A stretch of DNA of 64,000 nt, from the IMG/VR virus record IMGVR_UViG_3300047202_000291. The stretch is one strand, 5' to 3'. Within the stretch, counting starts at the first letter, position 1, and each line of letters opens with the position of its first letter. Below the pieces are notes generated by a model. The model was given only the letters and a program-made list of their open reading frames with translations, was not told the origin of the DNA and ran no database searches. The position numbers and the translations under genes were made by a program. The DNA comes from a virus (lineage: Duplodnaviria; Heunggongvirae; Uroviricota; Caudoviricetes). This document shows positions 4,340 to 63,202 of this stretch, in pieces.

Positions 4340-5254
4340 ATGAGGGGTTGGCATTATGAATCTCATAGGCATAGTCTTGCAGCCAAAGGCATAAAGACTT
4401 CTCAGCCAAAGCTTGCCAAGGTTCTCAGATCAGAAAATATCATCTTTGAGCCAAAATACGATGGCACGCGCATGATTCTTGAGAAGAAGGGTTCTGAGCT
4501 TACATTCATCAATAGGCGCGGTGTCGTAAAGAATGATACTTATCCTGAATTATATAATATTAATAAGAGCATCAAGGGCGATGTAATTCTCGATGGTGAA
4601 GTTGTCGTTCTAGATAAGGAGCATCCCTTTGGCAATTTTGAAAAGCTCGCAATGAGAGATAGGCTAAAAGATAAAGAGGAAATAGAGAAAAGATCCAAAA
4701 CCCTTCCATTGACTTATGTTGTTTTTGATATTCTGGAAAAAGACAGGCAAAAGGTGGCAGATTTGCCATTGTCCGAGCGGAAGAAGATTCTTGATAATGT
4801 GATTGCACAAGGAAAGAACATCAGAGAAATAGAGTTCTCAAATAAATCAAGCGAGATGTTGTCTAAAGTTAAGCAGGCAAAAGGAGAAGGAATTGTGCAA
4901 AAAGACATCAATTCTAAATATGCACCAGGTTCCACGAGGTCCTGGGAAAAATACAAGCTTCTTAAGACAAATGATGTGGCAATAATTGGTATCACTTTAG
5001 GGACGGGAAGAAGAAAAGGTTATTTTGGTGCATTAAAGATTGCAGTTAATACTCCAAAAGGTTTAAAACCTGTTGGAAAAGTCGGCACCGGATTCTCAGA
5101 CGCTGATTTAAAGGAGATAAAAAGTAGATTGGATCAAGGTGAAAAACTCGTTGCTCGAATTCAATATAGAAAAATAGGTAGTGCTGATCATTATATTGAA
5201 CCTCGTTTTCAGGCAATTCGAACAGATATTTCTCAAAGTGATACGCACGAATGA
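4340..5254 (+). CDS. ATP-dependent DNA ligase (small, viral-type) carrying the shared N-terminal GW.YESYRHSLAAKGIKT module
   Basis: Motif I EPKYDGTRM (KxDGxR), motif III VILDGEVVV, motifs V/VI GIVQKD...WEKYKLLK. SD AGGGTGAG upstream. Confidence 0.85.
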   Translation: MRGWHYESHRHSLAAKGIKTSQPKLAKVLRSENIIFEPKYDGTRMILEKKGSELTFINRRGVVKNDTYPELYNINKSIKGDVILDGEVVVLDKEHPFGNFEKLAMRDRLKDKEEIEKRSKTLPLTYVVFDILEKDRQKVADLPLSERKKILDNVIAQGKNIREIEFSNKSSEMLSKVKQAKGEGIVQKDINSKYAPGSTRSWEKYKLLKTNDVAIIGITLGTGRRKGYFGALKIAVNTPKGLKPVGKVGTGFSDADLKEIKSRLDQGEKLVARIQYRKIGSADHYIEPRFQAIRTDISQSDTHE

Positions 5255-5268
5255 AGGAGGAGATAAAA

Positions 5269-5382
5269 ATGGGAAAATTGGAAAAAGCATTGAATAAATT
5301 TGCAAAATTCACTTTTGTGAAGGCACCAAAGGCAGGTGTTAAGGCAGGGAATGTAGTCAGGAAAGGCTGGAAAAAGAAGTGA
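5269..5382 (+). CDS. Small Lys-rich hypothetical protein (37 aa)
   Basis: Strong SD GAAGGAGG 8 nt upstream of the ATG. Confidence 0.3.
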   Translation: MGKLEKALNKFAKFTFVKAPKAGVKAGNVVRKGWKKK

Positions 5383-5522
5383 TTCAAAAGTAGATTTATG
5401 GCTAAAAAAAAGGAGAAGCCGATACTTGAGGAATGGATTGAAATGATTGAGGATGATATAAAAAATACAGTTAAGGAGATTAAATATTTTATTGAGCATC
5501 CAAAAAACGAGAGGAGATTAAA

Positions 5523-6359
5523 ATGAAGGGTTGGTATTACGAATCTTATCGTCATAGTCTTGCAGCCAAAGGTATAAGGACAAATTGGGTGTTAATCAAT
5601 GAGAATCCGAGCTATAAGCGCATAAGAATCAATCGCGGATATAAAGATGTCGTCCAGGTAGATGCAAAGACTCTTAAAGAGCGTTTTGAGAAGGATAATA
5701 ATACTCCTCTTGCTTGGAAGCAATTAAGATTCGATCTTCTGAAAAACTGTGAGGAGTTTGATCAATATCCTGAGGTTGATATTCTTTCTTCTGGCAAAAT
5801 AGATTTTAATGATGGTCGTCATAGGGTTGCTGTGGCCGCAGCTCGTGGCGAGACAATCGAAATAGCAGTTAAAAATAAAGATAAATTTCTTGAGGCTTTC
5901 AGTAAGCATTCTTTTGCTGCAAAGCAGGATCCTTATGAATTTCAGGATAGCAATCAGGAGAAGATAGTTCATGCTGATTGGTGGGGTGAGCAACAATATG
6001 ATGCGAATCATAGGCCTCTTCCTTTGCTCTGGAAAGATAATGAGCTCAGATTTGTTCTTGAGGGCTCTGGCGATATTTTCAGGGAGTTCTCAATACATAA
6101 AGCGGATAACTGGTGGTTTGCTCAGAATTATATTGATGAGAAGGCAGCCCGCATTAAGAAATATCTGACTGATCCTTCTTTGGCGAATCATTCCGTCGGA
6201 GAGATAAATAAAGCAAAGCTTGCAGAGATTAGAAGGCTTTGGACAATTCAGCCTTACGAAACAGAGTTGCAGAAGAAAGCTATTGATCTGAACCTTGCGA
6301 TAATTGATAAGGACAATGAGAAGGCACTTTCAATCTTAAAGGAGGTTTCGAAAGTATGA
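5523..6359 (+). CDS. ParB-like nuclease domain protein with the shared N-terminal module
   Basis: ParB/Srx motif FNDGRHRVAVAAARGE. N-terminus MKGWYYESYRHSLAAKGIRT. Confidence 0.7.
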   Translation: MKGWYYESYRHSLAAKGIRTNWVLINENPSYKRIRINRGYKDVVQVDAKTLKERFEKDNNTPLAWKQLRFDLLKNCEEFDQYPEVDILSSGKIDFNDGRHRVAVAAARGETIEIAVKNKDKFLEAFSKHSFAAKQDPYEFQDSNQEKIVHADWWGEQQYDANHRPLPLLWKDNELRFVLEGSGDIFREFSIHKADNWWFAQNYIDEKAARIKKYLTDPSLANHSVGEINKAKLAEIRRLWTIQPYETELQKKAIDLNLAIIDKDNEKALSILKEVSKV

Positions 6360-7105
6360 ATCGTTACAAACCCCTTGGTTGGCGTTATGAATCATACAGG
6401 CATTCCTTAGCAGCCAAAGGCATCAAAACAAGGTATAAGGTGCCTCCGGCATGGAGAAATGTTAAGTATTATAAGGATAAGCCGTATGTTGTAACTGGTG
6501 TTGATAAGAAAGGTAGGGTTCAATATATTTATCCTGAATCTTTTTCTTCTGCAAGCAGTGAAAAGAAGTTTAATAGGATTGAGCGCTTTGAGAAGCAAGC
6601 ACCGGCTATAATCGATTCTGTAATGAAGGATGTTAAAAAAGGAGATAATCCCGAGGCCGAAGTTGTTTATACGATGTACAAAACTGGATTTAGGCCAGGT
6701 TCGGAGAATGATACAATGGCGGAGAAGAAGGCGTTTGGTGCATCAACTTTGCTTAAGGATCACGTTTCTGTGCGAAAAGATGATGTTAAGTTTAAATTCA
6801 TTGCTAAGAAAGGCGTTCCTGTTGAAAAAGACGTTAAGGATAAGCTTCTTGCAGATATAATTAAGAGGCGCATGCAAAGTAGACGGCTCTTTGATACCTC
6901 TGAAGGTCGTTTAAGGGCTTATTTTGATAAAAAGACCCAAGGTAGGTTCCAATTAAAGGACCTGAGGACTTTGAAGGCCTATGAGGTCGCTAAGGAGGCT
7001 GGTGGCGATAAGAAGGAGATAGCTGAACGCGTTTCAGAGGAGCTCAGCAATACGCCCGCAGTCGCGATAAGTTCTTATGTTCATCCGAGGCTGATTAATG
7101 AATAG
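6356..7105 (+). CDS. Type IB topoisomerase-like catalytic-domain protein (compact) with the shared N-terminal module
   Basis: YKTGFRPGSENDTMAEKKAFGASTLLKDHVSVRKDDVKFKFIAKKGV resembles the poxvirus-type TopoIB core (GccsLr.eHv...v.F.F.GK). C-terminal LRTLKAY is a possible catalytic Tyr. N-terminus GWRYESYRHSLAAKGIKT. Confidence 0.5.
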   Translation: MNRYKPLGWRYESYRHSLAAKGIKTRYKVPPAWRNVKYYKDKPYVVTGVDKKGRVQYIYPESFSSASSEKKFNRIERFEKQAPAIIDSVMKDVKKGDNPEAEVVYTMYKTGFRPGSENDTMAEKKAFGASTLLKDHVSVRKDDVKFKFIAKKGVPVEKDVKDKLLADIIKRRMQSRRLFDTSEGRLRAYFDKKTQGRFQLKDLRTLKAYEVAKEAGGDKKEIAERVSEELSNTPAVAISSYVHPRLINE

Positions 7106-7760
7106 ATTAAAGCCAATCGGTTGGAAATACGAAGGATATAGGCATAGTTTAGCAGCTCGAGGTATCAAAACTTCTTTTAAATTAAAATATGGAAAAGACA
7201 TTCCCGCGCAGCTTCATACTGGTTCAAAGGAATTTAAGGATATTAGCGAAGTGAAACAGCACCTCCCTTTTAAGCCAAGGGGCGGTTTTTGGACTTCGAG
7301 CTATAGGCATGATGCAGAGCCTGGATCTAAAAGTGATTGGCTTGATTGGGCATCCTCAGAAATGCCTGGGAAAGCCAGTAGTGAACACATGATTCTTAGG
7401 CCAATTCCAAATGCAAAGATATTTGAGATCGATGATGAAGAAGATATGAGATATTTGTTTGATAAATATGGAACACTTGTGAGCGGTATGCCCGATATTG
7501 ACTGGCAGAAACTCTCGCAGGATTATGATGGATTGCGTGTGACTGAGAATGCTGCACGCAAGTTTCATTTGAATTACGTTTCTATGGAGGATTTGATTAA
7601 AAAGAAGGGATTGAAAAGTCCTTTTGGAAAAGATCATTTTTTATCAGGAGTTACCTTAAATGCTTGGGACTCTGAAAGTACAATTTGGTTTAGGGATGTT
7701 TTCAAGAAGAAAACTCCCGTTGATATGAAAATAAATGCTGAAATGGATACCGGATATTGA
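7098..7760 (+). CDS. Hypothetical protein with the shared N-terminal module
   Basis: N-terminus MNRLKPIGWKYEGYRHSLAARGIKT; no other recognisable domain. Confidence 0.65.
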   Translation: MNRLKPIGWKYEGYRHSLAARGIKTSFKLKYGKDIPAQLHTGSKEFKDISEVKQHLPFKPRGGFWTSSYRHDAEPGSKSDWLDWASSEMPGKASSEHMILRPIPNAKIFEIDDEEDMRYLFDKYGTLVSGMPDIDWQKLSQDYDGLRVTENAARKFHLNYVSMEDLIKKKGLKSPFGKDHFLSGVTLNAWDSESTIWFRDVFKKKTPVDMKINAEMDTGY

Positions 7761-9748: not shown

Positions 9749-10042
9749 ATGATGAAATATTATGATAGATGGACATTCATGCGCATTCTTCTTCATCTAT
9801 GGTCCACTGTTAACGGCGTCACTTTATCAGATTTGCGTAGGAAGATTGGTCTTAGGGTGACGATTGAGCACATTGATTGGCTTGAGAAGCACAAGTATGT
9901 GCGCAGAGTTCAGGATATTGATGATTTTCGAAAGCTCAATATTTATTTAACAGCGAAAGCAAAGCCAGTGTGCAAGGCATTAATGGATTTGAAATATTCC
10001 TTGCCAGAGGATTTGGGAAATGAATTTTTTAGGTCGCATTAA
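9749..10042 (+). CDS. Winged-helix DNA-binding protein (MarR/ArsR-like)
   Basis: GVTLSDLRRKIGL...HIDWLEKHKYVRR helix-turn-helix/wing pattern. SD TAGGAGG. Confidence 0.55.
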   Translation: MMKYYDRWTFMRILLHLWSTVNGVTLSDLRRKIGLRVTIEHIDWLEKHKYVRRVQDIDDFRKLNIYLTAKAKPVCKALMDLKYSLPEDLGNEFFRSH

Positions 10043-10547
10043 GCTTCTTTTTGAATATTTTAAAAAGAATGATATGACTCTACGCGAGTTTGCAATAGGT
10101 ATGAACTCAGAGGTCAGCATCAAGAAGGACCTTCATATTCTTTTCTTCGATTATGATGAAGTCTCCCAAGAAGATGTCGAGGAATCTGTATTGGAATGCC
10201 AGGTTTTTTGGAATCTTTCAGACTGTTTTCTCTATAAGACTGGGAATGGGTTTCATGCATATTTTTATTATGATATAATGCCCTACACAAGAGTGCGCAT
10301 GATTATCGACTTTGCTAAATATGTTGATCCAATGTTTAAGTTCATTGGCAGATTTTATGATTATAAAACCATACGCCAGGCAGGAAAATACAAAGTGCAG
10401 GACATTTCTTTCTTGAAAATGATCCCGGGCAAGAGAACGCCCACTCTGGGAGAGGCTGAATTAGGTGATCTGAAGCGCAGGGAACGTGAATATTTATCCC
10501 AGATGCACGGCATTTTGAAGCCAGAAGTATTAAAAGACAAGAAATAA
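10020..10547 (+). CDS. Archaeo-eukaryotic primase (AEP)/primase-polymerase-like small protein
   Basis: AEP motif I ILFFDYDE (hhhDxD) and motif II TGNGFHAYF (sGxGxHxY). Lies directly upstream of the iteron-rich ORF-free region. Confidence 0.55.
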   Translation: MNFLGRIKLLFEYFKKNDMTLREFAIGMNSEVSIKKDLHILFFDYDEVSQEDVEESVLECQVFWNLSDCFLYKTGNGFHAYFYYDIMPYTRVRMIIDFAKYVDPMFKFIGRFYDYKTIRQAGKYKVQDISFLKMIPGKRTPTLGEAELGDLKRREREYLSQMHGILKPEVLKDKK

Positions 10548-10759
10548 TTACTACTAAAAAGTGGGCATAAACATAAGCATTAACATAAACATCGACGATA
10601 ATGCATATGTCTCGTGCTTATGCCAAGAACATATGCTTGTGCTGGCTTAATGCTATATTTCTTGTTTTTGGGTGTCTTGAATTAGTTGATATTTTACTAC
10701 TTTTTAGTTATAAAATATTAAATTAACTACTGATTAGGAATTAAGAAAGGTTTAATAAT

Positions 10760-11035
10760 AGGGGTTGTTTTCTACTCTTGAAATAAGAGAAGGGGGGTTT
10801 TTAGCTATGAGTATTAAAGGGGGTTTATTTTTGTATGAAAGGGGGTTTAATAGGGCGATAAATAAAGGGCTATTTCTTGCGGTAATAAGGGCGATTAATA
10901 AGGGCGATATAAGGCGATATAAAAAGGCGATTTCTTGCGACTATTTAGGGCGACTAATAAGGGCGACTATTAAAGGGTTTTCTAAAAGGTTTTCTCTTGC
11001 GATTAAAGGGGTTTCTCATTATCTAATTTTTTAAT
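10760..11035. repeat. Iteron array (GGGGGTTT, TAATAAGGGCGA[TC], TTCTTGCG families)
   Basis: Direct repeats visible in sequence. The 89-aa ORF the track calls here has a translation that simply mirrors the repeats. Confidence 0.6.
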
Positions 11036-11234
11036 CACCTTTCGGTAATAACCACCACCACCAAAAAGTTTATATACTGAATATGCTTTTCTCCTTCTCA
11101 TATCGCCTATAACGGCGGTTTTGGTATTTAACCAAAAATAAGGTTTTAACCAATTAAAAGGGCAAAACGCAACCTTTAAGGCGAAAGTTTTAAAGGTTTA
11201 GGTTAAAGTTTAGTATCCTACCTTTTTGAATACT

Positions 11235-11256
11235 GCTCACTTACAGGGCTATTCGC
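11235..11256 (+). promoter_or_regulatory. 22-nt element GCTCACTTACAGGGCTATTCGC; reverse complement of the element at 52926-52948
   Basis: Near-exact (single 1-nt indel) inverted copy 41.7 kb away; sits ~120 nt upstream of the gene starting at 11373. Confidence 0.5.
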
Positions 11257-11372
11257 ACAGGAAAAACTACCTTTTCTTTTAAGGACTACGAGCATTAACA
11301 TTAAGTTCTTTTGTTAATTAAAAGGGCTTAATTTCGTTCTCCATTATTAAAACCAAATCGGAGGCGATAATA

Positions 11373-11834
11373 ATGGAAACAATAGAGAAAACAAAAATAG
11401 TAGTTCCAGAGAAAATACCTGCCCAAATCTCTAAAAAATTAGAGATGTTTGGAGAGGTTGTAGATGTAGATTTCGTTTTTGCTGGAGTAGGCAAAAATGG
11501 AACAAGGCATATATCTACAAAGTCATTTGTTCCTTCTAATGAGAAGGAAGCAAAGGCTTTTGTCATAAAGCCGTGTTTGAAGGGCTTTAAGACAGCAGAG
11601 GGATATAGAAATCCTTGGGTATGGTATTTAAACCACAAGGGTATTGTCTTTAATGACGACGGCACAATAGCCATAGTCTTAAAAGACCAAACAGAGCCAA
11701 CTATTTATAAGGTTGAGCATAAGATGATTCTCTATAATGGGGAATTATCGAATAGGAGTGGTATCACCACTTTTAGAAGGGCGGACAACGACAGCGAAAC
11801 CAGCGAACTACCATATTCGCTGGTAGAGGAATAA
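11373..11834 (+). CDS. Hypothetical protein
   Basis: Start context GGAGGCGATAATAATGG (shared with the genes at 18671 and 53187). Confidence 0.65.
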   Translation: METIEKTKIVVPEKIPAQISKKLEMFGEVVDVDFVFAGVGKNGTRHISTKSFVPSNEKEAKAFVIKPCLKGFKTAEGYRNPWVWYLNHKGIVFNDDGTIAIVLKDQTEPTIYKVEHKMILYNGELSNRSGITTFRRADNDSETSELPYSLVEE

Positions 11835-16598: not shown

Positions 16599-17450
16599 AT
16601 GCCAGAACTAATGCCGATGCTCTTGCAGGAAGTGGAATTCTCAGAGGATGTCTTTGAGAAATATAAAGACTATGTTTGGCAAGAGAAGGAAAATGGCGTG
16701 CGGGTTATGGTTCATATAAAAGACGGGAAGATTTCTGCAGTAAGAAATAGGCGAAATAATCCTGTCTTGCATTTGTATCCAGAACTAACTGCACTTGATT
16801 TTGGGAAAATTAGTGCTATCTTGGACGGCGAACTTGTTGTCTTTAAAAATAACAAGAGTGTTTTCTATGGTGGTATTAATCAAAGGGATAAGCTTTATTC
16901 AAAGGATTCTGTGGAGAAATTTCCAGTTACATTTGTGGCTTTTGATATGATTTTTCTTAATAAGGAAATTCTATTAGGTAAGCCACATAATGAGAGGTAT
17001 GAACTTTTGAATACTGGATTTCTTTCATATACTGGAAAGCACTTTGTAATCTCTGATAATATTGCTGACCCAAAGAAATACTGGGCTGAGCACGTTATTC
17101 CGGAAGGAAGAGAAGGCTTGGTGCTTAAGGATCCCAAAAGCAAATATGAGCCAAGCCAAAGGTCTTGGTCTTGGCTGAAGCTTAAGAATTATAAGGTTGC
17201 TGAAGTGATTGTCGATAGCATTGATGTCAATGTTAAGGGCAATAAGATTACTGGAAAGGCAACTATTAATTCAGAAGTGTGTATTGTTGAGTGCCAATAC
17301 GGCGGCGTGTATAATATTCAGTTAGGCGATAAGCTTCCTGTCGAATATCTTGATATTGTCGGCGGGAAACTTATTCAGCCACATAAGCCAAGAAAATGGA
17401 AGCCAGAGGTGATTCAAAATGCCAGTGAAAATGAAAGTTCCAAAGATTGA
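16599..17450 (+). CDS. ATP-dependent DNA/RNA ligase (second copy; KxNG motif-I variant)
   Basis: Motif I KENGVR, motif III ILDGELVVF, motifs V/VI LVLKDPKSKY...WLKLK. Confidence 0.7.
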   Translation: MPELMPMLLQEVEFSEDVFEKYKDYVWQEKENGVRVMVHIKDGKISAVRNRRNNPVLHLYPELTALDFGKISAILDGELVVFKNNKSVFYGGINQRDKLYSKDSVEKFPVTFVAFDMIFLNKEILLGKPHNERYELLNTGFLSYTGKHFVISDNIADPKKYWAEHVIPEGREGLVLKDPKSKYEPSQRSWSWLKLKNYKVAEVIVDSIDVNVKGNKITGKATINSEVCIVECQYGGVYNIQLGDKLPVEYLDIVGGKLIQPHKPRKWKPEVIQNASENESSKD

Positions 17451-22129: not shown

Positions 22130-22152
22130 GCACTGGACAAAAATAAAAAACT

Positions 22153-26182: not shown

Positions 26183-26782
26183 ATGAAACCGAAACTCAGT
26201 ATAAAGTATTATCAGAACGCAGACAAGAATCATCAGGATTCTTTTTGGTATGATGGAGATATTGCATTGCTTAAATATAAGAATCGAGAAGTGCTTGTAG
26301 TCGCTGCAGGCGACATAAGGATTCACAATAAAAGAGGTGAGTTGGTCTATGATTGTAAGCCCCGCAATTCAGGATTTTCATTCAAGCTTGAGCAAGATAA
26401 AGATTTGTATAAGATAGGTAATAATTATGATGATGATTTCTATTGGGAAAATAACAACTGGTTCGAGCTCTTTTATAAGAACAAAGGAGATTCTAATTGG
26501 AATGATATTTTAGGTGATGTTTATTTTGACTATGGTGTTGTAATAAAAGCGGCGAAAGATGCAATTAAGGATGATAAATGGTGGAATGAAACCTGGAATA
26601 AAGCTACCTGTCTTGAGTGTAAGAAGGAGTTTATTCAGGAAAGGGACATTCAGCTTTGTGATGTTTGCATAAAGAAGTTCAATCTTGACAAGCTCTGGAA
26701 AGACCACGACAATAATAAAATTGATGCTCTTGATTTTAATGAGTCTAAAAAGATACGAGAAAAATATAGGGTGAAGAAATAA
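26183..26782 (+). CDS. Hypothetical protein with a C-terminal CxxC...CxxC motif
   Basis: ATG after GAGGT. Confidence 0.55.
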   Translation: MKPKLSIKYYQNADKNHQDSFWYDGDIALLKYKNREVLVVAAGDIRIHNKRGELVYDCKPRNSGFSFKLEQDKDLYKIGNNYDDDFYWENNNWFELFYKNKGDSNWNDILGDVYFDYGVVIKAAKDAIKDDKWWNETWNKATCLECKKEFIQERDIQLCDVCIKKFNLDKLWKDHDNNKIDALDFNESKKIREKYRVKK

Positions 26783-27933
26783 TGGAAGTAACACACGAAC
26801 AGTTGGCTATGCTTATTGAAGAGCACCGAAGGGCAGGGCTTCCTTTGTTTGTTGATGGTGCAACAGGCATCGGTAAATCTGAAGCTGGTATTAAGAGCAG
26901 TAAGATGTATGCTGATAGAATAAGTAGGCAATGGGTTGCTTGGGTTGATCTATCTAATTTAGATAGGCATAAGTTTCTTGATGACAAGGAGATTGTGAAG
27001 GTTCATTTATTCGTTGACATAAGGACGGCTCTTTTGGAACCGACTGACCTTCTTGGTTTGCCGTTTAAGGATGAGCGTGGTTATGTTGCTTGGTTGCCGA
27101 CTCTTCTTTTCAAGATTCTGAGTTTGCCTTCAGTTTCAGCTACTATATTCTTTGACGAATTCAATTTAGGCAGTTTGATGGTCATGAAATCCAGTTATCA
27201 GCTTATTCTTGATAAGGCCATAGGGGAAGTCAAGCTTGGTAAGGATGTTACAATTCTTGCAGCAGGAAACAGGATTGAGGATCGTGCTCACGTTACAGAG
27301 TCTCCAGCTCCATTAAACAATAGGTTTAGCCATTGCACTTTGCTTTGTCCAACTCCAGATGAGTGGATTATGTATAATCTTAAATCAGAATATCCTGAGC
27401 CAAGGCTCGTTTCTTTCATTAAGTTCAAGCCTAAATATATCTTTGACTTTAAGCCTAACCAAAAGGAGAAAGCATTTCCTACTCCGAGGGCGATTCAGCA
27501 GTTGGCTATGTTGCTTAAGGGAAAAGATGAGATGAATGAGCTCGATAATATGACCATGCTCGCCCAGGCGAAATGTGGTGATGCTTTCGGTGCAGAGTTT
27601 CAATCCTTCTTGCGTCTTACGAGGAAGGTTAATGTTGATGAGATTCTAGAGCATCCTGAAAAGGTGCATGAATTTGAAAAACAGCTTGACTTGAAATATT
27701 CATTAATCTCTGGGGTTGCCGTAAGGGTGAAGCAGGACTTCAATAAGATGGAACAGGCCCTCAAAGTTATAGCCGAGCTTGAAGATGAGTATGGTGTCTT
27801 TTTATTGAGAATGATTATTGATATTTGCGGTATGAAGGTGTTGTCCGTCCTTGAGCATAGTAAGACTTGGGAAACCAGGCTCTATGATAAGTTTAAGGAC
27901 ATATTAAGCACGAGATTTGCGCAGGTGAGTTAA
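26782..27933 (+). CDS. MoxR-family AAA+ ATPase
   Basis: Walker A DGATGIGKSE, Walker B IFFDEFN, sensor AAGNR, PLNNRF arginine-finger motif. Confidence 0.8.
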   Translation: MEVTHEQLAMLIEEHRRAGLPLFVDGATGIGKSEAGIKSSKMYADRISRQWVAWVDLSNLDRHKFLDDKEIVKVHLFVDIRTALLEPTDLLGLPFKDERGYVAWLPTLLFKILSLPSVSATIFFDEFNLGSLMVMKSSYQLILDKAIGEVKLGKDVTILAAGNRIEDRAHVTESPAPLNNRFSHCTLLCPTPDEWIMYNLKSEYPEPRLVSFIKFKPKYIFDFKPNQKEKAFPTPRAIQQLAMLLKGKDEMNELDNMTMLAQAKCGDAFGAEFQSFLRLTRKVNVDEILEHPEKVHEFEKQLDLKYSLISGVAVRVKQDFNKMEQALKVIAELEDEYGVFLLRMIIDICGMKVLSVLEHSKTWETRLYDKFKDILSTRFAQVS

Positions 27934-28174
27934 ATGGATAAAAATAAGCAGTATGCTTTGAAGATAAAACGGCGTTATGAAAACATATGTGAAAAGCTCG
28001 AGCAGTTGAATGCAGAAGCATTTGAGCTTGAGCAGGAGATGATGATGTGGTGAGATTAAAATGAAATTTTATAACTTTAAAGTTGAGGGAATAAGCGAAG
28101 AAATGGTGAAATTATTGATGAAACCATGTGATGAAGAAGGATTAGAATTTATAGTGGAGGAGGTGAAATAGAAA

Positions 28175-28906
28175 ATGTCGCACTTTGTAATGGGTGTAGT
28201 TGTGCCTGGAGATGAGCCATTGACTTTTGTTGATGATGCTCTTGCTCCTTTTGACGAGGCTCTTGTTGTAAAGCCTTATAAAAGGAAGTGTTGGTGTATT
28301 GGTAAGGAGGCAGAAGCGGCAATCGCAAAAGAAGGCACCGAAATATATGGATCTTGGGATGACCTGAGGACTAAGTTCCATGCACAGGAACAGATAAGGC
28401 AGGTAAAAAAAGAACAGGAAAAACTTTATAATAAGCCAAAAGAGGCCAAAAGATATTCTGAAATCGAGGCTTCAATTCAGAAGCAATGGGAAGCTTTCAT
28501 TAAGCCAAAATTAGATTTCGAAAAAAAGTGTTTGAGAGACCATCCTGGAAAAAATTCTCCGATGAAAAATTGTGAATCTTGCAAAGGGACAGGTAAGGAG
28601 ACCGTGACCTATAATCCGAAGTCAAAATGGGATTGGTATGAAGTCGGCGGTCGTTGGGATGGCTTCTTAAGTAAGACCAATGTGACGACTGTGAAGGAAC
28701 ACCTTAAGCAGTTGAAGAAAGCCTTTGACGCTAAAGTTTGTTTCGGCTATTTGGTTGATGGTGAATGGATTGAAAAAGGAGATATGGGTTACTGGGGTAT
28801 GGTTGCTAATGAAAAAAGTGAGCAGGTAATTCGTAAGAAATTCCTTTCATTGCTTGAGGGGTTAAATCCAGATGATAGGATAGTGGCAGTTGATTGTCAC
28901 ATATAG
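28175..28906 (+). CDS. Hypothetical protein
   Basis: SD GGAGGAGGTG upstream. Confidence 0.6.
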   Translation: MSHFVMGVVVPGDEPLTFVDDALAPFDEALVVKPYKRKCWCIGKEAEAAIAKEGTEIYGSWDDLRTKFHAQEQIRQVKKEQEKLYNKPKEAKRYSEIEASIQKQWEAFIKPKLDFEKKCLRDHPGKNSPMKNCESCKGTGKETVTYNPKSKWDWYEVGGRWDGFLSKTNVTTVKEHLKQLKKAFDAKVCFGYLVDGEWIEKGDMGYWGMVANEKSEQVIRKKFLSLLEGLNPDDRIVAVDCHI

Positions 28907-28916
28907 AGGTGAAGCT

Positions 28917-29123
28917 ATGCCTAAATTGTTGTTAGTTTTGGAAGCTCCGATAAAAATCTTTAAAGAACGAGATGTCTATCAGGTTTATAGGGTTTGGGCT
29001 AATGGCGTGCTTGCTCGATACGGATACGGTAAGACCAGAAAAGAAGCCATAGAAGTTGCTAAGAAGTTATTCATAGAATCGAAAAGAGGCAAAGCCGTCT
29101 CTTGTAAATATGTGGGTGATTGA
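28917..29123 (+). CDS. Hypothetical protein
   Basis: ATG at 28917. Confidence 0.5.
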   Translation: MPKLLLVLEAPIKIFKERDVYQVYRVWANGVLARYGYGKTRKEAIEVAKKLFIESKRGKAVSCKYVGD

Positions 29124-29276
29124 ATGATAAAGCCAAAGATAAACTATGCGAAGCTGATACTTGAGATACCGATATATTGGGGTATTGATGACGATGGCAA
29201 TATATTTGATGAAGAGGAGATGACAGAGGACTTTCAGCAGTTGCTGAAAAAGTTAAATCCAAAGAAGGTGAAATAG
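29124..29276 (+). CDS. Small acidic protein (50 aa)
   Basis: ATG ORF on the + strand. Confidence 0.35.
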   Translation: MIKPKINYAKLILEIPIYWGIDDDGNIFDEEEMTEDFQQLLKKLNPKKVK

Positions 29277-29419
29277 TGCCGACTTATGTGTATGTTGAGA
29301 AGAATGGAAATGCTTCATTAATACTTAGTGCAGATGCTGAAGAAGAAGCCGAAGCTTATCTTGGGGCTGTTGTTAAGCTTCCTGTTGAGTGGCGGCTCGA
29401 ATCAGTTGAGGTGGAATAG

Positions 29420-29650
29420 ATGTGCAATCGATACGAGACAAATCTTGAATCTTGGGAATCGAGTTTGAGCGATAGGCTCGATAAGCTTCTGGATGAAGAG
29501 ACTTTGGCTTTCATCAAGGCTTGTAAAGCTGACGGTGGAGAATCTGAGCCAGATGCTTTTGTTAATCCAGATATGGAGGCGGCTCAAAAAGATACTCTTG
29601 TAGCCATACAGCGATGGTTCGACGATAAAAAGGATGTCTTGCAAGTGTGA
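29420..29650 (+). CDS. Hypothetical protein
   Basis: ATG ORF on the + strand. Confidence 0.5.
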   Translation: MCNRYETNLESWESSLSDRLDKLLDEETLAFIKACKADGGESEPDAFVNPDMEAAQKDTLVAIQRWFDDKKDVLQV

Positions 29651-29659
29651 GGTGGAAAT

Positions 29660-29932
29660 ATGAACTTTATGAATATAAATGGCTTGGCAATTAAGTTCGA
29701 TGGAGATAGGCTTACTATTGAGGGCTTAAAGAAAGGCTCAGGTAAATCTATTAAGATTGATAAGGATGGGATAATCACTGGTGATGTCACTGGCGATGTT
29801 CAGGTCATAGGTAATAATGTTATTTTGAATATCGAAGGAGATGTGACTGGGAATATTGTCGGAGCGCGTGAAGTGAAGGTTCACGGTGACGTGACTGGGA
29901 ATATCTCTGCTGGAAAAGTTAGCAAATGGTGA
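29660..29932 (+). CDS. Bactofilin-like beta-helix repeat protein
   Basis: Repeated GDVTGDV / GDVTGNI / GDVTGNIS units. Confidence 0.55.
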   Translation: MNFMNINGLAIKFDGDRLTIEGLKKGSGKSIKIDKDGIITGDVTGDVQVIGNNVILNIEGDVTGNIVGAREVKVHGDVTGNISAGKVSKW

Positions 29933-29941
29933 GGCGAAATA

Positions 29942-30208
29942 ATGTGTAAAAGAAGTTCTTGGAAAGAAGTTCGCGGCGTATTAGTAAAGAAAGTAAAGGT
30001 TGCAGGATATGGAATGGTGTTGGTAAAACTTCCTTCCAGATATATGAGCCTCCACATACCTATGGGCGATGGAGAAGACAAAAAGATGTTCGATGAATTA
30101 GTATATTATAATCAAAGACTATATAATGGAAAAGATGAACAAACAATAAAAGGAAATGTTACAAAATTCATAAAAGAATACAAAGCAAGAAAGTGTGAGG
30201 TGGTATGA
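29942..30208 (+). CDS. Hypothetical protein
   Basis: ATG ORF on the + strand. Confidence 0.5.
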   Translation: MCKRSSWKEVRGVLVKKVKVAGYGMVLVKLPSRYMSLHIPMGDGEDKKMFDELVYYNQRLYNGKDEQTIKGNVTKFIKEYKARKCEVV

Positions 30209-30444
30209 TGAGGGAAATAAAATCAAAAGGCGAATTGGCCGTGTTCATTAACACGTCGAACTGCACTCAGCCTACAAGGCTGTTTTGTTGCGATAGGGTT
30301 GAGCTTGCAGGTAACCACTTGTTCTTTTATAGCAAGGAAACTTTATTGATGAAAGTCTGGTTAAAGGATGAGCTTGTTAGGATAGATGATGCTCTTGTGC
30401 GTGTTGGAATATTTGTAAATGATTTTGGTGAGAAGCTTGGATGA
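30205..30444 (+). CDS. Hypothetical protein
   Basis: ATGA overlap with the upstream gene. Confidence 0.5.
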   Translation: MMREIKSKGELAVFINTSNCTQPTRLFCCDRVELAGNHLFFYSKETLLMKVWLKDELVRIDDALVRVGIFVNDFGEKLG

Positions 30445-30610
30445 AGAAAAATATGTCGCAGTTTTGTGGCTGTTTGAGCAAGGAGAACTTAGTGATATAA
30501 AAAAGCATATGGGTAAAACTCCTTCAAGAGAAGATTTAATTACTCTTGTTGAGGATATACTTGAGCGGTATGGTAATATGGAATATTACGATTTAGAGGT
30601 GTTAGATTGA
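30419..30610 (+). CDS. Hypothetical protein
   Basis: ATG ORF on the + strand. Confidence 0.4.
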   Translation: MILVRSLDEEKYVAVLWLFEQGELSDIKKHMGKTPSREDLITLVEDILERYGNMEYYDLEVLD

Positions 30611-30795
30611 ATTGTCCAAAATGCAGAAAGAAGTTGTCTCGGGTTAATGTCATTTCCCAATGCTGGCAGAAGGCTTGGGTTGATGATAAAGGGAAGATAA
30701 CAGAGTATGGTTCTGTCGAGGAAATTACAGACACTCTTTTTATAGAGTGTCCAGATTGCTTTGCAAAACTTGATAAGGTGGTCAAGGAAGATTGA
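30607..30795 (+). CDS. Zinc-ribbon protein
   Basis: CPKC...CPDC; TTG start. Confidence 0.5.
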   Translation: MNCPKCRKKLSRVNVISQCWQKAWVDDKGKITEYGSVEEITDTLFIECPDCFAKLDKVVKED

Positions 30796-52674: not shown

Positions 52675-52879
52675 TTTTAAATTCAAAGTGGATAATGGGG
52701 ACGATCTTATTTTTTTTATTTCCGGTTTATTGATGGCAGGAATGTTCCTTTATAAGAATAATTTTAACTTGTCGTGGCCATTAGGATTTCCACTTATCTT
52801 CCTCTTGATCGTCTCGATTATAATTTTTTATGCCTCTTTTATATCTCTTAAATTGTTGAGGGCTAACAAAATTCTTTAA
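52667..52879 (+). CDS. Small membrane protein
   Basis: Two TM helices. Confidence 0.45.
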   Translation: MNDFKFKVDNGDDLIFFISGLLMAGMFLYKNNFNLSWPLGFPLIFLLIVSIIIFYASFISLKLLRANKIL

Positions 52880-52900
52880 AGCGAAACATTTAAATATATT
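52879..52900 (+). promoter_or_regulatory. BRE/TATA-like promoter AAAGCGAAACATTTAAATATAT
   Basis: Shares AAGCGAAACATTTA.ATAT with the 34087 promoter. Nothing but a 4-codon ORF follows before the terminator. Confidence 0.45.
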
Positions 52901-52911
52901 AAACTTACTTG

Positions 52912-52990
52912 ATTGATTATGTTTGCGAAATAGCCCTGTAAGTGAGCTGTGGCGGGATAATTAAACTTGTCCCGCCTTCATTTTTATAGG
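52912..52990 (+). ncRNA. Candidate ~80-nt small RNA (promoter, 23-nt element, intrinsic terminator), antisense-complementary to 11235-11256
   Basis: TATA at 52889-98. GCGAAATAGCCCTGTAAGTGAGC at 52926-48. Hairpin GGCGGGA-N12-TCCCGCC at 52952-77 followed by TTCATTTTT. Confidence 0.35.
52952..52990 (+). terminator. Hairpin plus T-tract terminator-like element
   Basis: GGCGGGATAATTAAACTTGTCCCGCC then TTCATTTTTA. Confidence 0.5.
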
Positions 52991-53007: not shown

Positions 53008-53166
53008 ATGATGATGGACAAAGACTATCCTATTATGGTTAAGGCGGACACTAAAAAAGCTCTTTCTGATTTCAAGACGAGGAACGAAGTAAAGATCCTT
53101 ATGCATAAGAAGAGGCGGTATGCTTCTTGGGATGATGTCATTAAATTTTTGTTGAGGGATAAATAA
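53008..53166 (+). CDS. Small DNA-binding-like protein (52 aa; RHH/CopG-like?)
   Basis: Strong SD GGAGGAGGTTGGGTG upstream. Confidence 0.5.
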   Translation: MMMDKDYPIMVKADTKKALSDFKTRNEVKILMHKKRRYASWDDVIKFLLRDK

Positions 53167-58730: not shown

Positions 58731-58931
58731 AAATGGAAAATAGAAAAATTTATAAACGTCATTGCATCACTGGTGCTTTATGGTAAGAATTAAGGGACTC
58801 ATACTGTGGTTGAAATCCACGACATCGGCTACCTTAAATAGTTCAGCGACCAGTTGCTGATCCATTTGCCATAGTTTTCTTCAATCATTATTTGCTATGG
58901 ACTTAAGATTTCTATGGCAATTTTTCACATT

Positions 58932-59089
58932 GGTTCCGTAGCTTAGCAGTTAAAGCATCTGGCCGTTAGTGCGTCCGTCACAGACCCCAAATCTGTGCAG
59001 CATCGTGACCTGCGAATAATTGTTTTGACGCGGGACAACGCAAGACAACGGTGACCAGGCGAGCCTCGGTGCAAATCCGAGCGGAACCG
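58932..59089 (+). tRNA. tRNA with an ~85-nt intervening sequence (anticodon possibly GTT/Asn)
   Basis: Acceptor GGTTCCG/CGGAACC; D-arm GCTT-AGCAGTTA-AAGC; T-arm CTCGG-TGCAAAT-CCGAG. Anticodon stem TCTGG/CCAGG flanks an insertion at 37/38. Confidence 0.5.
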
Positions 59090-59109
59090 TTTTGGGTGCG
59101 TAGGTGCGT

Positions 59110-59501: not shown

Positions 59502-59617
59502 GCGGACGTGTCCGAGCGGCCGAAGGAGCCAGATTCAAATAAAGGCTAAACTTAAAGCCATCGGAGAAATCTGGTGCTAAGTGCATAACAACAGCGGTTC
59601 AACTCCGCTCGTCCGCA
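59502..59617 (+). tRNA. tRNA-Leu (CAA) with an ~30-nt intron at 37/38
   Basis: Acceptor GCGGACG/CGTCCGC; anticodon stem CCAGA...TCTGG flanks TTCAAA plus a hairpin-containing insert; long variable arm; T-arm AGCGG-TTCAACT-CCGCT. Confidence 0.7.
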
Positions 59618-60506: not shown

Positions 60507-60578
60507 ACGGACTTAGTAGAATAGCTAGCACGCAGGGCTCATAACCCTGAGAAGGTGGCGCAATTCCACCAGTCCGTA
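60507..60578 (+). tRNA. tRNA-Met/Ile2 (CAT)
   Basis: Acceptor ACGGACT/AGTCCGT; anticodon arm CAGGG-CTCATAA-CCCTG; T-arm GGTGG-CGCAATT-CCACC; weak D-stem. Confidence 0.55.
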
Positions 60579-61285: not shown

Positions 61286-61294
61286 TTCTTTTCT

Positions 61295-61407
61295 GCAGGT
61301 GTGTCCAAGCGGTCAAGGAGCCCGACTGATACGTCAAGTGTCCGGGAATTATATGTCCCCTTGACTAAGAGTTCGGGAAAGCGCAGGTTCGATTCCTGCC
61401 ACCTGCA
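61295..61407 (+). tRNA. tRNA-Ile (GAT) with a 40-nt intron at 37/38
   Basis: Acceptor GCAGGTG/CACCTGC; CCCGA-CTGATA|intron|T-TCGGG; T-arm GCAGG-TTCGATT-CCTGC. Confidence 0.65.
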
Positions 61408-61411
61408 TTTT

Positions 61412-62978: not shown

Positions 62979-62980
62979 TT

Positions 62981-63069
62981 GGGCGAATGGTCCAATCCGG
63001 AACACGACGCCTGGCTAACAAATATTTTTAGAATCCAGGAAGCTCAAGGTTCAAATCCTTGTTCGCCCA
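62981..63069 (+). tRNA. tRNA with a ~13-nt intron (anticodon unresolved, possibly AAC)
   Basis: Acceptor GGGCGAA/TTCGCCC; anticodon stem CCTGG/CCAGG flanks 20 nt; T-arm CAAGG-TTCAAAT-CCTTG. Confidence 0.45.
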
Positions 63070-63202
63070 TAAATAAAAGCAAAGCTTTATATATATGTTC
63101 CAACATACACCCTTTATCCGATAGGCGGTATAAAGCCAAATTCGGAATAAGCGGTAAGCAAAGCTTCGTGCGACGCTAAATCCGCAACAAGGAGAGAGAA
63201 AC

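What the first reader, a model, noticed from the sequence alone, without database searches (positions are those of the whole stretch)
52879..52990. Candidate small RNA whose core 23 nt is the reverse complement of a site upstream of gene 11373
At 52879-52990 a promoter-like AAAGCGAAACATTTAAATATAT is followed ~25 nt later by GCGAAATAGCCCTGTAAGTGAGC. Then come a GC hairpin (GGCGGGA-N12-TCCCGCC) and a T-tract. Only a 4-codon ORF fits in between.

The reverse complement of the 23-mer, GCTCACTTACAGGGCTATTCGC, occurs at 11235-11256, ~120 nt upstream of the ATG at 11373 and in the sense orientation of that transcript. This could be a trans-acting antisense regulator, or a pair of binding sites for one factor.
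Basis: seen in the sequence. Interest (0 to 1): 0.6.

Follow-up and report, generated by a model that had tools for sequence, protein, structure and literature searches.

The report
Conserved viral antisense RNA and target
A short non-coding stretch in an uncultivated ~117-kb virus is an almost perfect mirror copy of the start of another gene's messenger 42 kb away, and because both copies stay unchanged in related viruses it is most likely a small regulatory RNA that switches that gene; no transcript data exist yet.

Summary
The 23-mer at 52925-52947 is the reverse complement of the 22-mer at 11235-11256 except for one extra A (19 nt exact). A GC hairpin and T-run follow at 52951-52987.

The match is not chance and not a dispersed repeat. 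There are two copies in the window, and no shuffle reached the match.

Both copies lie at syntenic positions in related metagenomic viruses. The regulator side was seen in four lineages and the target side in three. Flanking genes are only 61-88% identical in DNA.

The hairpin after the 23-mer keeps its structure while its sequence changes. In one lineage the complement is 22/22. The site at 11.2 kb is the only strong pairing partner in 64 kb (-42 kcal/mol; next best -27).

Best reading, confidence about 0.55: a small RNA, or the 5' leader of the 52-aa gene, pairs with the 5' end of the conserved, structured leader of gene 11373. That gene lies beside a probable replication origin. Pairing most likely turns it down.

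Main rival: two operators for one DNA-binding protein.

No Rfam family matches. tRNA introns and TATA-like promoters suggest an archaeal host. No expression data exist.

The parts
52881..52896 (+). Promoter-like box GCGAAACATTTAAATA: a purine-rich element followed by TTTAAATA. Read as BRE + TATA if the host is archaeal.
   Evidence: The same motif class lies before genes at 22152, 34098 and 42923 and before the tRNA array at 58749. The 42.9-kb copy is unchanged over about 60 nt in lineage 3. The box is conserved upstream of the seed in lineages 1, 2 and 5, with a TATTTAAA variant in lineage 3.
52925..52947 (+). Seed: GCGAAATAGCCCTGTAAGTGAGC, complementary to 11235-11256.
   Evidence: It is invariant in lineages 1, 1b, 2, 3 and 5 apart from the A indel, and is the longest invariant block of the intergenic alignment.
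52930..52950 (+). Predicted stem-loop 1: AUAGC / GCUGU stem with loop CCUGUAAGUGA, which presents the centre of the seed.
   Evidence: The U.G pair in lineages 1 and 2 becomes U-A in lineages 3 and 5.
52951..52976 (+). GC-rich stem-loop 2 (10 bp).
   Evidence: A hairpin is present at this place in all five lineages, with different sequence in lineages 3 and 4. Three pairs changed on both sides; 96% of cells are paired.
52977..52987 (+). T-run TTCATTTTTAT, the likely 3' end of the small RNA in this lineage.
   Evidence: It is T-rich in lineages 1, 2 and 5, and weak or absent in lineages 3 and 4.
52904..52911 (+). Possible anti-seed CUUACUUG, which could pair with 52939-52946 if transcription starts upstream of it.
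   Evidence: Three one-sided changes in lineages 2 and 5 keep pairing; lineage 3 breaks it. This is weak evidence.
53008..53166 (+). Downstream 52-aa gene (MMMDKDYPIMVKAD...). It would carry the seed in its 5' leader if the hairpin does not terminate transcription.
   Evidence: The protein is 88-96% identical in lineages 1-3 and 5 and 46% in lineage 4. It has no Pfam hit. The AF2 model is low-confidence: a disordered N-terminus and two helices.
11235..11256 (+). Target: GCTCACTTACAGGGCTATTCGC in the sense strand upstream of gene 11373.
   Evidence: It is exact in lineages 1b and 5, and reads TCTTACTTACAGGGCTATTCGC in lineage 3. It is the best duplex partner of the seed in the window by 15 kcal/mol.
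11227..11255 (+). Predicted 5' stem-loop of the leader (UGAAUA..GCUC / GGGC UAUUCG). Its loop ACUUACA is complementary to the loop of stem-loop 1.
   Evidence: It is kept in lineage 3 with a shifted inner stem.
11257..11372 (+). Conserved structured leader. It includes a hairpin (11336-11380) that pairs UCCAUUAUU with AAUAAUGGA and so buries the start codon.
   Evidence: The leader is nearly identical between lineages 1 and 3. In lineage 5 the first ~40 nt are identical and the rest has diverged, with the start-codon hairpin kept.
11373..11834 (+). Target gene, 153 aa, function unknown.
   Evidence: It has no Pfam, PHROG or PDB match. Only two other 50%-identity clusters exist among 1.84 billion representatives. 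AF2 pLDDT is 35. The lineage-5 homologue is 50% identical by MAFFT alignment (about 45% by tblastn).
11069..11125 (+). Conserved TTTATATA box followed about 25 nt later by hairpin ATCGCCTATAACGGCGGT and TTTTGG. It marks the upstream boundary of the target transcription unit and could be a terminator, an attenuator or another start.
   Evidence: In lineage 5 the hairpin has a different sequence but is still a hairpin.
10020..11034 (+). Context: an AEP-like Rep gene (10020-10547) followed by iteron-like repeats (about 10750-11010). This is a probable replication origin.
   Evidence: The sequence shows the motifs ILFFDYD and GNGFHAYF. The Pfam AEP-like hit is weak (E 0.08). Repeats: (D6). Short-read assemblies break here.

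Best explanation
The region 52.88-52.99 kb encodes a regulatory RNA that acts by base-pairing.

How the RNA is made. Transcription starts a few nucleotides before the 23-mer, from a virus-specific promoter box at 52881-52896. The RNA carries the seed GCGAAAUAGCCCUGUAAGUGAGC at its 5' end, partly displayed in a small stem-loop. A GC-rich hairpin follows. In this lineage a U-run then ends a ~65-85-nt RNA. Where the U-run is weak, the same element is the 5' leader of the 52-aa gene's mRNA.

What it pairs with. The seed pairs over 18-22 nt with the 5'-proximal part of the mRNA of gene 11373. Pairing probably starts by loop-loop contact between UGUAAGU and ACUUACA. Gene 11373 encodes a 153-aa protein of unknown function and is the first gene after a probable replication origin.

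Likely outcome. Pairing opens the 5' stem-loop of that leader and replaces it with an intermolecular duplex. I take the most likely result to be down-regulation, through cleavage or faster decay of the target mRNA. This would work as a timing or feedback switch during infection.

Shown here:
- the sequences and their complementarity;
- conservation of both partners;
- the structure-conserving hairpin;
- the uniqueness of the site within the window.

Inferred:
- that both strands are transcribed as drawn, and the transcription start sites;
- the size of the RNA;
- the direction of the effect and the nuclease involved.
For: 1. Complementarity. The exact match is 19 nt, then GCG after a 1-nt bulge. 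It is absent from shuffles.

2. Conservation of the seed-side element. It is present in lineages 1b, 2, 3 and 5 at the syntenic intergenic site. Flanking genes are 63-88% identical in DNA, and the rest of the spacer is 47-80% identical.

3. Conservation of the target. It is present in lineages 1b, 3 and 5, upstream of the homologous gene. In lineage 5 that gene's protein has diverged to about 45-50% amino-acid identity.

4. Lineage 5 has a perfect 22/22 complement, with both sites on one 116-kb contig about 48.5 kb apart.

5. GCG(A)A is conserved on the far side of an indel. An RNA bulge tolerates this; a DNA-binding register would not.

6. The C-to-T change in the lineage-3 target keeps a G.U pair.

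7. Hairpin 2 is kept by structure although its sequence is replaced. Three pairs changed on both sides, and 96% of cells are paired.

8. Energetics.
- Duplex energies are -43 to -47 kcal/mol.
- The net gain over the folded monomers is -29 to -35 kcal/mol in three lineages.
- The site at 11231 scores -42.4. The next best site in the window scores -27.2 (mean -12.5, sd 3.7).

9. Orientation. Both elements are in the sense orientation of an array of genes that all run the same way.

10. Promoter geometry. Every candidate promoter upstream of the target places the invariant ACTTACAGGGCTATTCGC inside the transcript.

11. A promoter-like box of the class found before other genes of the element lies upstream of the seed in this window. 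It recurs in lineages 1b, 2 and 5 and as a variant in lineage 3.
Against: - There are no expression data. Transcription start sites and 3' ends are predictions.
- In lineages 3 and 4 the hairpin has no following T-run. A discrete small RNA is therefore not assured there.
- The whole first ~40 nt of the target leader and its promoter are invariant, not just the 22-mer. Target-side conservation is thus not specific to the pairing site.
- Only one informative substitution supports pairing, the G.U change in lineage 3. It may lie upstream of the real start site.
- In lineage 4 the seed is replaced, and no complementary partner was found in the 13 kb available.
- The lineage-2 target could not be fetched.
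- The target site is 117 nt from the start codon, so direct occlusion of the ribosome site is unlikely. The regulatory outcome is a guess.
Confidence: 0.55

Rival explanations
1. The two 22-bp sequences are DNA operators for one sequence-specific regulator. The obvious candidate is the conserved 52-aa protein encoded just downstream of the 52.9-kb copy. It would then repress its own promoter and the promoter of gene 11373.
For: - Both copies sit just downstream of promoter-like elements.
- The adjacent 52-aa protein is highly conserved where the 22-mer is conserved. It has diverged to 46% identity in lineage 4, where the upstream segment is also different.
- Its pattern is compatible with a ribbon-helix-helix repressor: a short hydrophobic N-terminal stretch followed by two helices.
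- The seed flanks form a short inverted repeat (AATAGC..GCTATT) in lineages 3 and 5.
Against: - The protein has no Pfam or PDB similarity to any DNA-binding family, and the AF2 model is low-confidence.
- Operators rarely need 22 of 22 identical bases in two copies and across lineages.
- The 11-bp asymmetric centre is exactly reverse-complemented between the sites. A symmetric dimer would not require this.
- A 1-bp insertion inside the site in lineages 1 and 2 leaves GCG conserved beyond it. This would shift the protein register.
- The palindromic arms are not kept at the target copy (GAATACTGC).
- No further partial copies or half-site pairs occur in 64 kb.
Confidence: 0.22
2. Each copy works on its own as the same strand-specific signal rather than as a pairing partner. 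Examples are a single-strand priming or initiation signal on opposite strands, or an RNA element bound by a protein if the ori-side copy is transcribed leftward.
For: - One copy lies next to an AEP-like Rep gene and iterons.
- Minus-strand genes were called just left of the target region in some relatives.
- In phage lambda, nutL and nutR are likewise inverted on the DNA (established knowledge).
Against: - In the window no minus-strand gene or promoter-like box lies where leftward transcripts through 11256-11235 would start.
- A plus-strand hairpin with a T-run precedes the region.
- The two gene calls in lineage 5 disagree between assemblies.
- The copies are 42-48 kb apart, unlike paired initiation signals at plasmid origins.
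- The element forms only a weak 5-bp stem.
Confidence: 0.1
3. The copies are inverted recombination sites for a site-specific recombinase that flips the 42-kb segment between them.
For: They are inverted identical sequences of about 22 bp, both in intergenic DNA.
Against: - All four contigs that carry both sites show the same orientation, with all genes co-directional: the window, ERR12814450_6980, k141_2703226 and Ga0504916_0000036.
- The sequence lacks the layout of a recombinase core site, with binding arms around a spacer.
- No recombinase was seen in the window.
Confidence: 0.04
4. The match is a chance or neutral leftover of a duplication and has no function.
For: The exact 19-mer alone is only moderately beyond the shuffles, which reach 18.
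Against: Both copies stay unchanged in lineages whose flanking DNA has diverged by 12-39%.
Confidence: 0.02

Closest known systems
c4 antisense RNA of phages P1/P7 (immI operon) and CI RNA of satellite phage P4 (from my own knowledge, not tested here)
   Same: A virus-encoded small RNA that is not transcribed opposite its target. It pairs through extended complementarity with a site in the untranslated leader of a viral mRNA and controls that gene.
   Different: - c4 and CI are processed from the same operon that holds their targets, and act within an immunity region of temperate elements.
- They use two short segments (c4) or cause premature termination (CI).
- Here the regulator has its own promoter-like box and lies 42-48 kb from the target.
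- It has one continuous 18-22-nt match at the 5' end of the leader.
- It shares no sequence similarity with them.
- The host is probably archaeal.
Antisense RNA of Halobacterium virus phiH against the early lytic transcript (Stolt and Zillig 1993, cited in PMC6210493)
   Same: An archaeal tailed virus uses an RNA complementary to the 5' part of one of its own transcripts. According to the title of that paper, the antisense RNA mediates processing of the transcript.
   Different: By my recollection, phiH's RNA is a counter-transcript made from the opposite strand of the same locus. The present pair is encoded at two distant loci, with only about 22 nt of complementarity.
OOP RNA of phage lambda (PMC12197685)
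   Same: A short phage RNA ending in a terminator hairpin. It pairs with a phage mRNA (cII) and promotes its degradation.
   Different: OOP is cis-encoded and overlaps the 3' end of cII. Its cleavage depends on bacterial RNase III, which most archaea lack.
Plasmid copy-control antisense RNAs (CopA/CopT of R1, RNA I/RNA II of ColE1; from my own knowledge)
   Same: Complementary stem-loops that can start pairing by loop-loop contact. The target lies next to replication functions.
   Different: Those RNAs are transcribed opposite their target, and their effect on replication is established. Here the link to the origin is only positional.
Trans-acting RNAs with extended complementarity in archaea (Sulfolobus RNA-257 family, PMC3674436)
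   Same: An archaeal RNA encoded elsewhere has extended complementarity to an mRNA untranslated region. Per the abstract, it is linked to faster degradation.
   Different: Those RNAs are transposon-derived, and the target is a 3' UTR of a host gene. They are not viral.

Membership tests
Any curated RNA family (Rfam 15) | Covariance-model match at or above the gathering score. | tested here: not met
   Only tRNAs reach gathering score in the window. With E up to 10, nothing overlaps 52879-52990 or 11200-11260.
Trans-encoded base-pairing small RNA | Complementarity to a transcript encoded elsewhere that is stronger than to the rest of the genome. | tested here: met
   The site at 11231 scores -42.4 kcal/mol against -27.2 for the next best (mean -12.5, sd 3.7). 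The net cofold gain is -29 to -35 kcal/mol.
Trans-encoded base-pairing small RNA | Seed and target are co-conserved in relatives. | tested here: met
   The seed is present in lineages 1b, 2, 3 and 5; the target in 1b, 3 and 5. Lineage 5 is 22/22. True covariation, meaning a different seed with a matching different target, could not be tested.
Trans-encoded base-pairing small RNA | An own promoter and a defined 3' end that give a discrete short transcript. | tested here: inconclusive
   A promoter-like box is conserved. Hairpin plus T-run is present in lineages 1, 2 and 5 but not in 3 and 4. No RNA data exist.
Trans-encoded base-pairing small RNA | The transcript is detected and regulation is shown with compensatory mutations. 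| not testable with these tools
   The virus is uncultivated and its host unknown.
Kissing-loop antisense systems (CopA/CopT type) | Complementary loops are displayed on stem-loops in both RNAs. | tested here: inconclusive
   The predicted loops CCUGUAAGUGA and ACUUACA are complementary. However, any sequence and its complement share hairpin potential. The stems are short (5-6 bp) and depend on the unknown start sites.
Kissing-loop antisense systems (CopA/CopT type) | The regulator is transcribed from the strand opposite its target (cis-encoded). | tested here: not met
   The two loci are 41.7 kb apart in the window and about 48.5 kb apart in lineage 5.
Ribbon-helix-helix repressor with operator (rival) | The adjacent small protein belongs to an RHH or other DNA-binding family. 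| tested here: inconclusive
   There is no Pfam hit at E up to 1. The PDB profile search gives only weak uL14 hits. The AF2 model (pLDDT 60) shows a disordered N-terminus and two helices, which is compatible but not diagnostic.
Ribbon-helix-helix repressor with operator (rival) | The operator is built of repeated or palindromic sub-sites. | tested here: not met
   The shared 22-mer is asymmetric. The short flanking arms are not kept at the target copy. No ATAGC-N9-13-GCTAT occurs in the window.
Bacterial intrinsic terminator | A GC-rich stem directly followed by a U-run. | tested here: met
   In the window, a 10-bp stem with 6 GC pairs is followed by TTCATTTTTA. This does not hold in lineages 3 and 4. 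If the host is archaeal, the T-run alone is the relevant signal.

The most novel reading that the evidence does not exclude
The element is an archaeal virus, and this is a virus-encoded trans-acting regulatory RNA. Its 5' end pairs with the 5' end of the first transcript beside the replication origin. Pairing sets the timing or level of an origin-linked function from 42-48 kb away. As far as I know, that would be the first trans-encoded small-RNA and target pair described in an archaeal virus. The 5'-end-to-5'-end duplex would act through archaeal 5'-end-dependent decay rather than through the ribosome site.
Probability: 0.2. Interest if true: 0.75.

Novelty: new member of a known kind. Interest (0 to 1): 0.5.

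Why it matters
Regulatory RNAs of viruses are known almost only from a few cultivated phages.

Here a regulator and target pair can be read directly from metagenomic sequence. Both partners are conserved across a family of ~116-kb viruses that has no cultivated member and no match in phage databases.

If confirmed, the pair would show that large environmental viruses, probably archaeal ones, use trans-acting antisense RNA to control a gene beside their replication origin.

It would also give a compact, portable RNA switch: a 22-nt seed plus a hairpin.

The pair is a ready hypothesis for metatranscriptome mapping in the source samples.

Tried and rejected
- **Near-identity search of 50-56 kb against 50,697 phage records.** No match.
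- **IMG/VR scans.** I scanned for the 18-mer, for four flanking or nearby proteins, for P0056 and for the lineage-4 seed. All were empty.
- **18-mer scans of metagenome and genome collections.**
  - One true relative was found (L003).
  - Hits fell in nine other loci (L004-L012). They lie in GC-richer contigs and read in frame as SPVSE. I rejected them as chance coding matches.
Cluster members from the listing of cluster members were accepted by the contig look-up and rescued the comparison.
- **CRISPR-repeat or anti-CRISPR RNA idea.** Rejected, because the hairpin sequence is not conserved between lineages.
- **Group II intron 5' end (GTGCG on the minus strand).** Considered from memory only and dropped: I saw no further resemblance to a group II intron, and Rfam gives no match at the site.
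- **Lineage-4 partner search.** The best hit was a 14-nt direct, same-sense repeat inside the HIRAN gene. It is not complementary and is probably chance.
- **Structure predictions.** The models of the 52-aa and 153-aa proteins were too poor for fold searches.
- **MoxR-like ATPase and VWA proteins.** They hit many bacterial phages at less than 30% identity, which says nothing about the host.
- **Sigma-70 promoter scan.** It gave no more sites than shuffles.

Full report
**1. The observation**

The sequence is as described.
- A box AAAGCGAAACATTTAAATATAT lies at 52879-52900.
- GCGAAATAGCCCTGTAAGTGAGC lies at 52925-52947.
- A 10-bp GC-rich hairpin lies at 52951-52976, followed by TTCATTTTTAT. The terminator scan also finds it.
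- Only a 4-codon ORF fits in the gap.
- GCTCACTTACAGGGCTATTCGC lies at 11235-11256, 117 nt before the ATG at 11373.

One correction is needed. The distal copy is a 22-mer, the reverse complement of the 23-mer minus one A. That gives 19 exact bases, then GCG after a 1-nt indel.

The match is beyond chance.
- No shuffle gave a match with up to 3 mismatches (0 of 100).
- The longest exact inverted repeat in 40 shuffles was 18 nt, against 19 observed.

The sequence occurs exactly twice in the window, so it is not a dispersed repeat.

**2. What the window is**

- Nearly all plausible genes run on the plus strand.
- A tRNA array lies at 59-63 kb.
- Phage-type MoxR-like ATPase and VWA/DUF2201 genes are present.
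- Nothing similar exists in 50,697 phage records or in IMG/VR.
- The same element occurs in public assemblies as contigs of up to 117 kb.

The 11.2-kb copy sits in an 826-nt non-coding region.
- The region follows a small protein with AEP-primase-like motifs. The motifs ILFFDYD and GNGFHAYF are visible in the sequence. The Pfam hit is weak.
- The region contains iteron-like repeats.
- Short-read assemblies break there.
- I read it as a probable replication origin. This is an inference.

**3. Relatives**

Five lineages were recovered through cluster members of the flanking proteins.

*Regulator side*:
- Lineages 1, 1b and 2 carry GCGAAATAGCCCTGTAAGTGAGC. Lineages 3 and 5 carry GCGAATAGCCCTGTAAGTGAGC.
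- In every case the element is at the syntenic spot, between a 68-72-aa gene and a 50-53-aa gene.
- This block is the longest invariant run of the intergenic alignment.
- By contrast, the flanking genes are 63-88% identical and the rest of the spacer 47-80%.
- A hairpin always follows. In lineage 3 its sequence is entirely different (GACGAGCGGCUC-UUCG-GAGCCGUUUCGUC). Between lineages 1 and 5 it changes by pair-preserving substitutions.
- Lineage 4 is more distant (46% protein identity). It has the same layout with a different ~25-nt segment and another hairpin.

*Target side*:
- The 22-mer is exact in lineages 1b and 5.
- In lineage 3 it reads TCTTACTTACAGGGCTATTCGC. The C-to-T change would keep a G.U pair. 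The other change is at the end of the duplex.
- In lineage 5 both sites lie on one 116-kb contig, about 48.5 kb apart, and match 22/22.
- In lineage 5 the downstream protein has diverged to about 45-50% amino-acid identity and 61% nucleotide identity. Yet the promoter region, the 22-mer and the next ~19 nt are unchanged.

**4. RNA anatomy**

*The regulator.* The candidate RNA folds into two stem-loops.
- The first is small (AUAGC/GCUGU). It exposes CCUGUAAGUGA.
- The second is the GC-rich hairpin.

*The target leader*.
- It begins with a stem-loop whose loop, ACUUACA, is complementary to the first loop of the regulator.
- An A/U hairpin and a long hairpin follow.
- A final hairpin buries the start codon.

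*Energetics.*
- Predicted duplexes are -43 to -47 kcal/mol.
- The net gain over the folded monomers is -29 to -35 kcal/mol in three lineages.
- Scanning both strands of the window, the 11.2-kb site scores -42.4 kcal/mol. The next best site scores -27.2 (mean -12.5, sd 3.7).

*A possible alternative fold.* If transcription starts further upstream, CUUACUUG at 52904-52911 could mask the seed. Three one-sided changes in other lineages keep that pairing, but lineage 3 does not. This is weak evidence.

**5. Host clue**

*tRNA evidence.*
- With introns allowed, ARAGORN finds tRNAs with short introns at or near the canonical position after the anticodon.
- The tRNA-Asn intron folds with two bulges on opposite strands, separated by a 5-bp helix.
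- The tRNA-Met has A1:U72 and three G-C pairs in its anticodon stem.
- Short protein-spliced introns at that position are typical of archaea and eukaryotes (PMC4090602). The A1:U72 feature of archaeal initiator tRNAs is from my own knowledge.

*Promoter evidence.*
- The 'promoter-like' box is a purine-rich element followed by TTTAWAWA.
- It recurs before genes and before the tRNA array.
- One copy is unchanged over 60 nt in lineage 3.
- It looks like an archaeal BRE/TATA promoter.

*What follows.* I therefore think the host is probably archaeal. This is an inference, with confidence of about two-thirds.
- With the usual spacing from TATA box to start site, the seed would lie 0-6 nt from the 5' end of its RNA in every lineage.
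- The invariant box TTTAGTAT (11209-11216) would start the target mRNA at about 11240.
- That would make the invariant ACUUACAGGGCUAUUCGC the very 5' end of the mRNA.
- It would also leave the positions that vary in lineage 3 untranscribed.
- Two other candidate boxes (11069, 11188) also place that core inside the transcript.

**6. Mechanism and rivals**

*Best reading, confidence about 0.55.* An RNA carrying the seed pairs with the 5' end of the leader of gene 11373 and most likely lowers its expression by cleavage or decay.
- In this lineage the carrier is a discrete small RNA.
- Where the T-run is weak, the carrier may be the 5' leader of the 52-aa gene.
- The outcome is a guess. The site is far from the ribosome site, and the nucleases depend on the host domain.

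*Main rival, about 0.22.* The two sites are operators of one DNA-binding protein, perhaps the adjacent 52-aa protein.
- For it: that protein co-varies with the segment across lineages. It could be a ribbon-helix-helix protein.
- Against it:
  - the sites show full-length identity;
  - the asymmetric centre is exactly inverted between the sites;
  - conservation continues across an indel;
  - no similarity to any DNA-binding family was found.

*Minor rivals.*
- Independent strand-specific signals, about 0.10.
- Inversion sites, about 0.04. No inverted isomer appears in four contigs.
- Chance, about 0.02.

**7. Comparison with known systems**

- No Rfam family matches.
- Functionally the closest are the c4 RNA of P1/P7 and the CI RNA of P4 (from my own knowledge).
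- Also close are the antisense RNA of Halobacterium virus phiH (cited in PMC6210493) and lambda OOP (PMC12197685).
- The present pair differs from these in four ways:
  - it is encoded at two loci 42-48 kb apart;
  - it has its own promoter-like box;
  - it pairs near both 5' ends;
  - it belongs to an uncultivated, probably archaeal, virus family.
- I file it as a new member of a known kind: virus-encoded base-pairing regulatory RNA.

**8. Limits**

- No expression data exist.
- The lineage-2 target could not be fetched.
- The functions of the target protein and of the 52-aa protein remain unknown.

Noticed in passing
window 58931-59090, 59502-59617, 61294-61408, 62980-63070; tRNA-Met 60507-60578: With introns allowed, ARAGORN tRNAs instead of 12. 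Several have short introns at or near the canonical position: Asn 85 nt, Leu(caa) 29 nt, Ile 40 nt, Val 13 nt. The Asn intron folds into a bulge-helix-bulge-like shape. The tRNA-Met has A1:U72 and GGG/CCC in its anticodon stem. Together these point to an archaeal host.
   Followed up: partly
window 22152, 34098, 42923, 52889, 58749 (also 11069): A recurring box made of an A/G-rich element plus TTTAWAWA. It lies about 35-45 nt before start codons and before the tRNA array, and looks like an archaeal BRE/TATA promoter. The 42.9-kb copy and its 60-nt surroundings are unchanged in lineage 3, although the upstream coding DNA differs.
   Followed up: partly
window 10020-11034: A small AEP-primase-like gene is followed by iteron-like repeats (AAGGGCGAT and GGGGGTTT units). 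This is a probable replication origin. Independent short-read assemblies of relatives end in these repeats. In lineage 3, gene calls place an 81-aa plus-strand gene and two minus-strand genes after the Rep gene, before the region upstream of the target gene (L026 4534-5763).
   Followed up: partly
window 4340-7760 and 16599-17450: Four consecutive genes (starts 4340, 5523, 6356, 7098) share a conserved ~20-aa N-terminal module (GWxYESxRHSLAAKGI; 59-nt repeat family D1). The first is an ATP-dependent DNA ligase. The homologue of the third carries a Topoisom_I Pfam hit in a relative (L030). Another ligase-like gene lies at 16599-17450.
   Followed up: no
window 11336-11380: The start codon of gene 11373 is predicted to be buried in a hairpin (UCCAUUAUU pairs with AAUAAUGGA). 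In lineage 5 the hairpin is kept with a different inner sequence. Translation of the target may therefore need activation.
   Followed up: partly
window 11069-11125: A conserved TTTATATA box is followed about 25 nt later by a hairpin and TTTTGG. In lineage 5 the hairpin has a different sequence but still pairs. It could be a very short transcript, an attenuator or the terminator of the upstream unit.
   Followed up: no
window 154-4140: A 1328-aa protein with Kelch repeats, which is unusual for a prokaryotic virus.
   Followed up: no
L003 12810-13098 versus window 26385-30699: The lineage-3 contig carries short, ~80-90% identical pieces of window regions 26.4, 28.0 and 30.7 kb next to each other. 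This indicates a rearrangement or deletion relative to the window.
   Followed up: no
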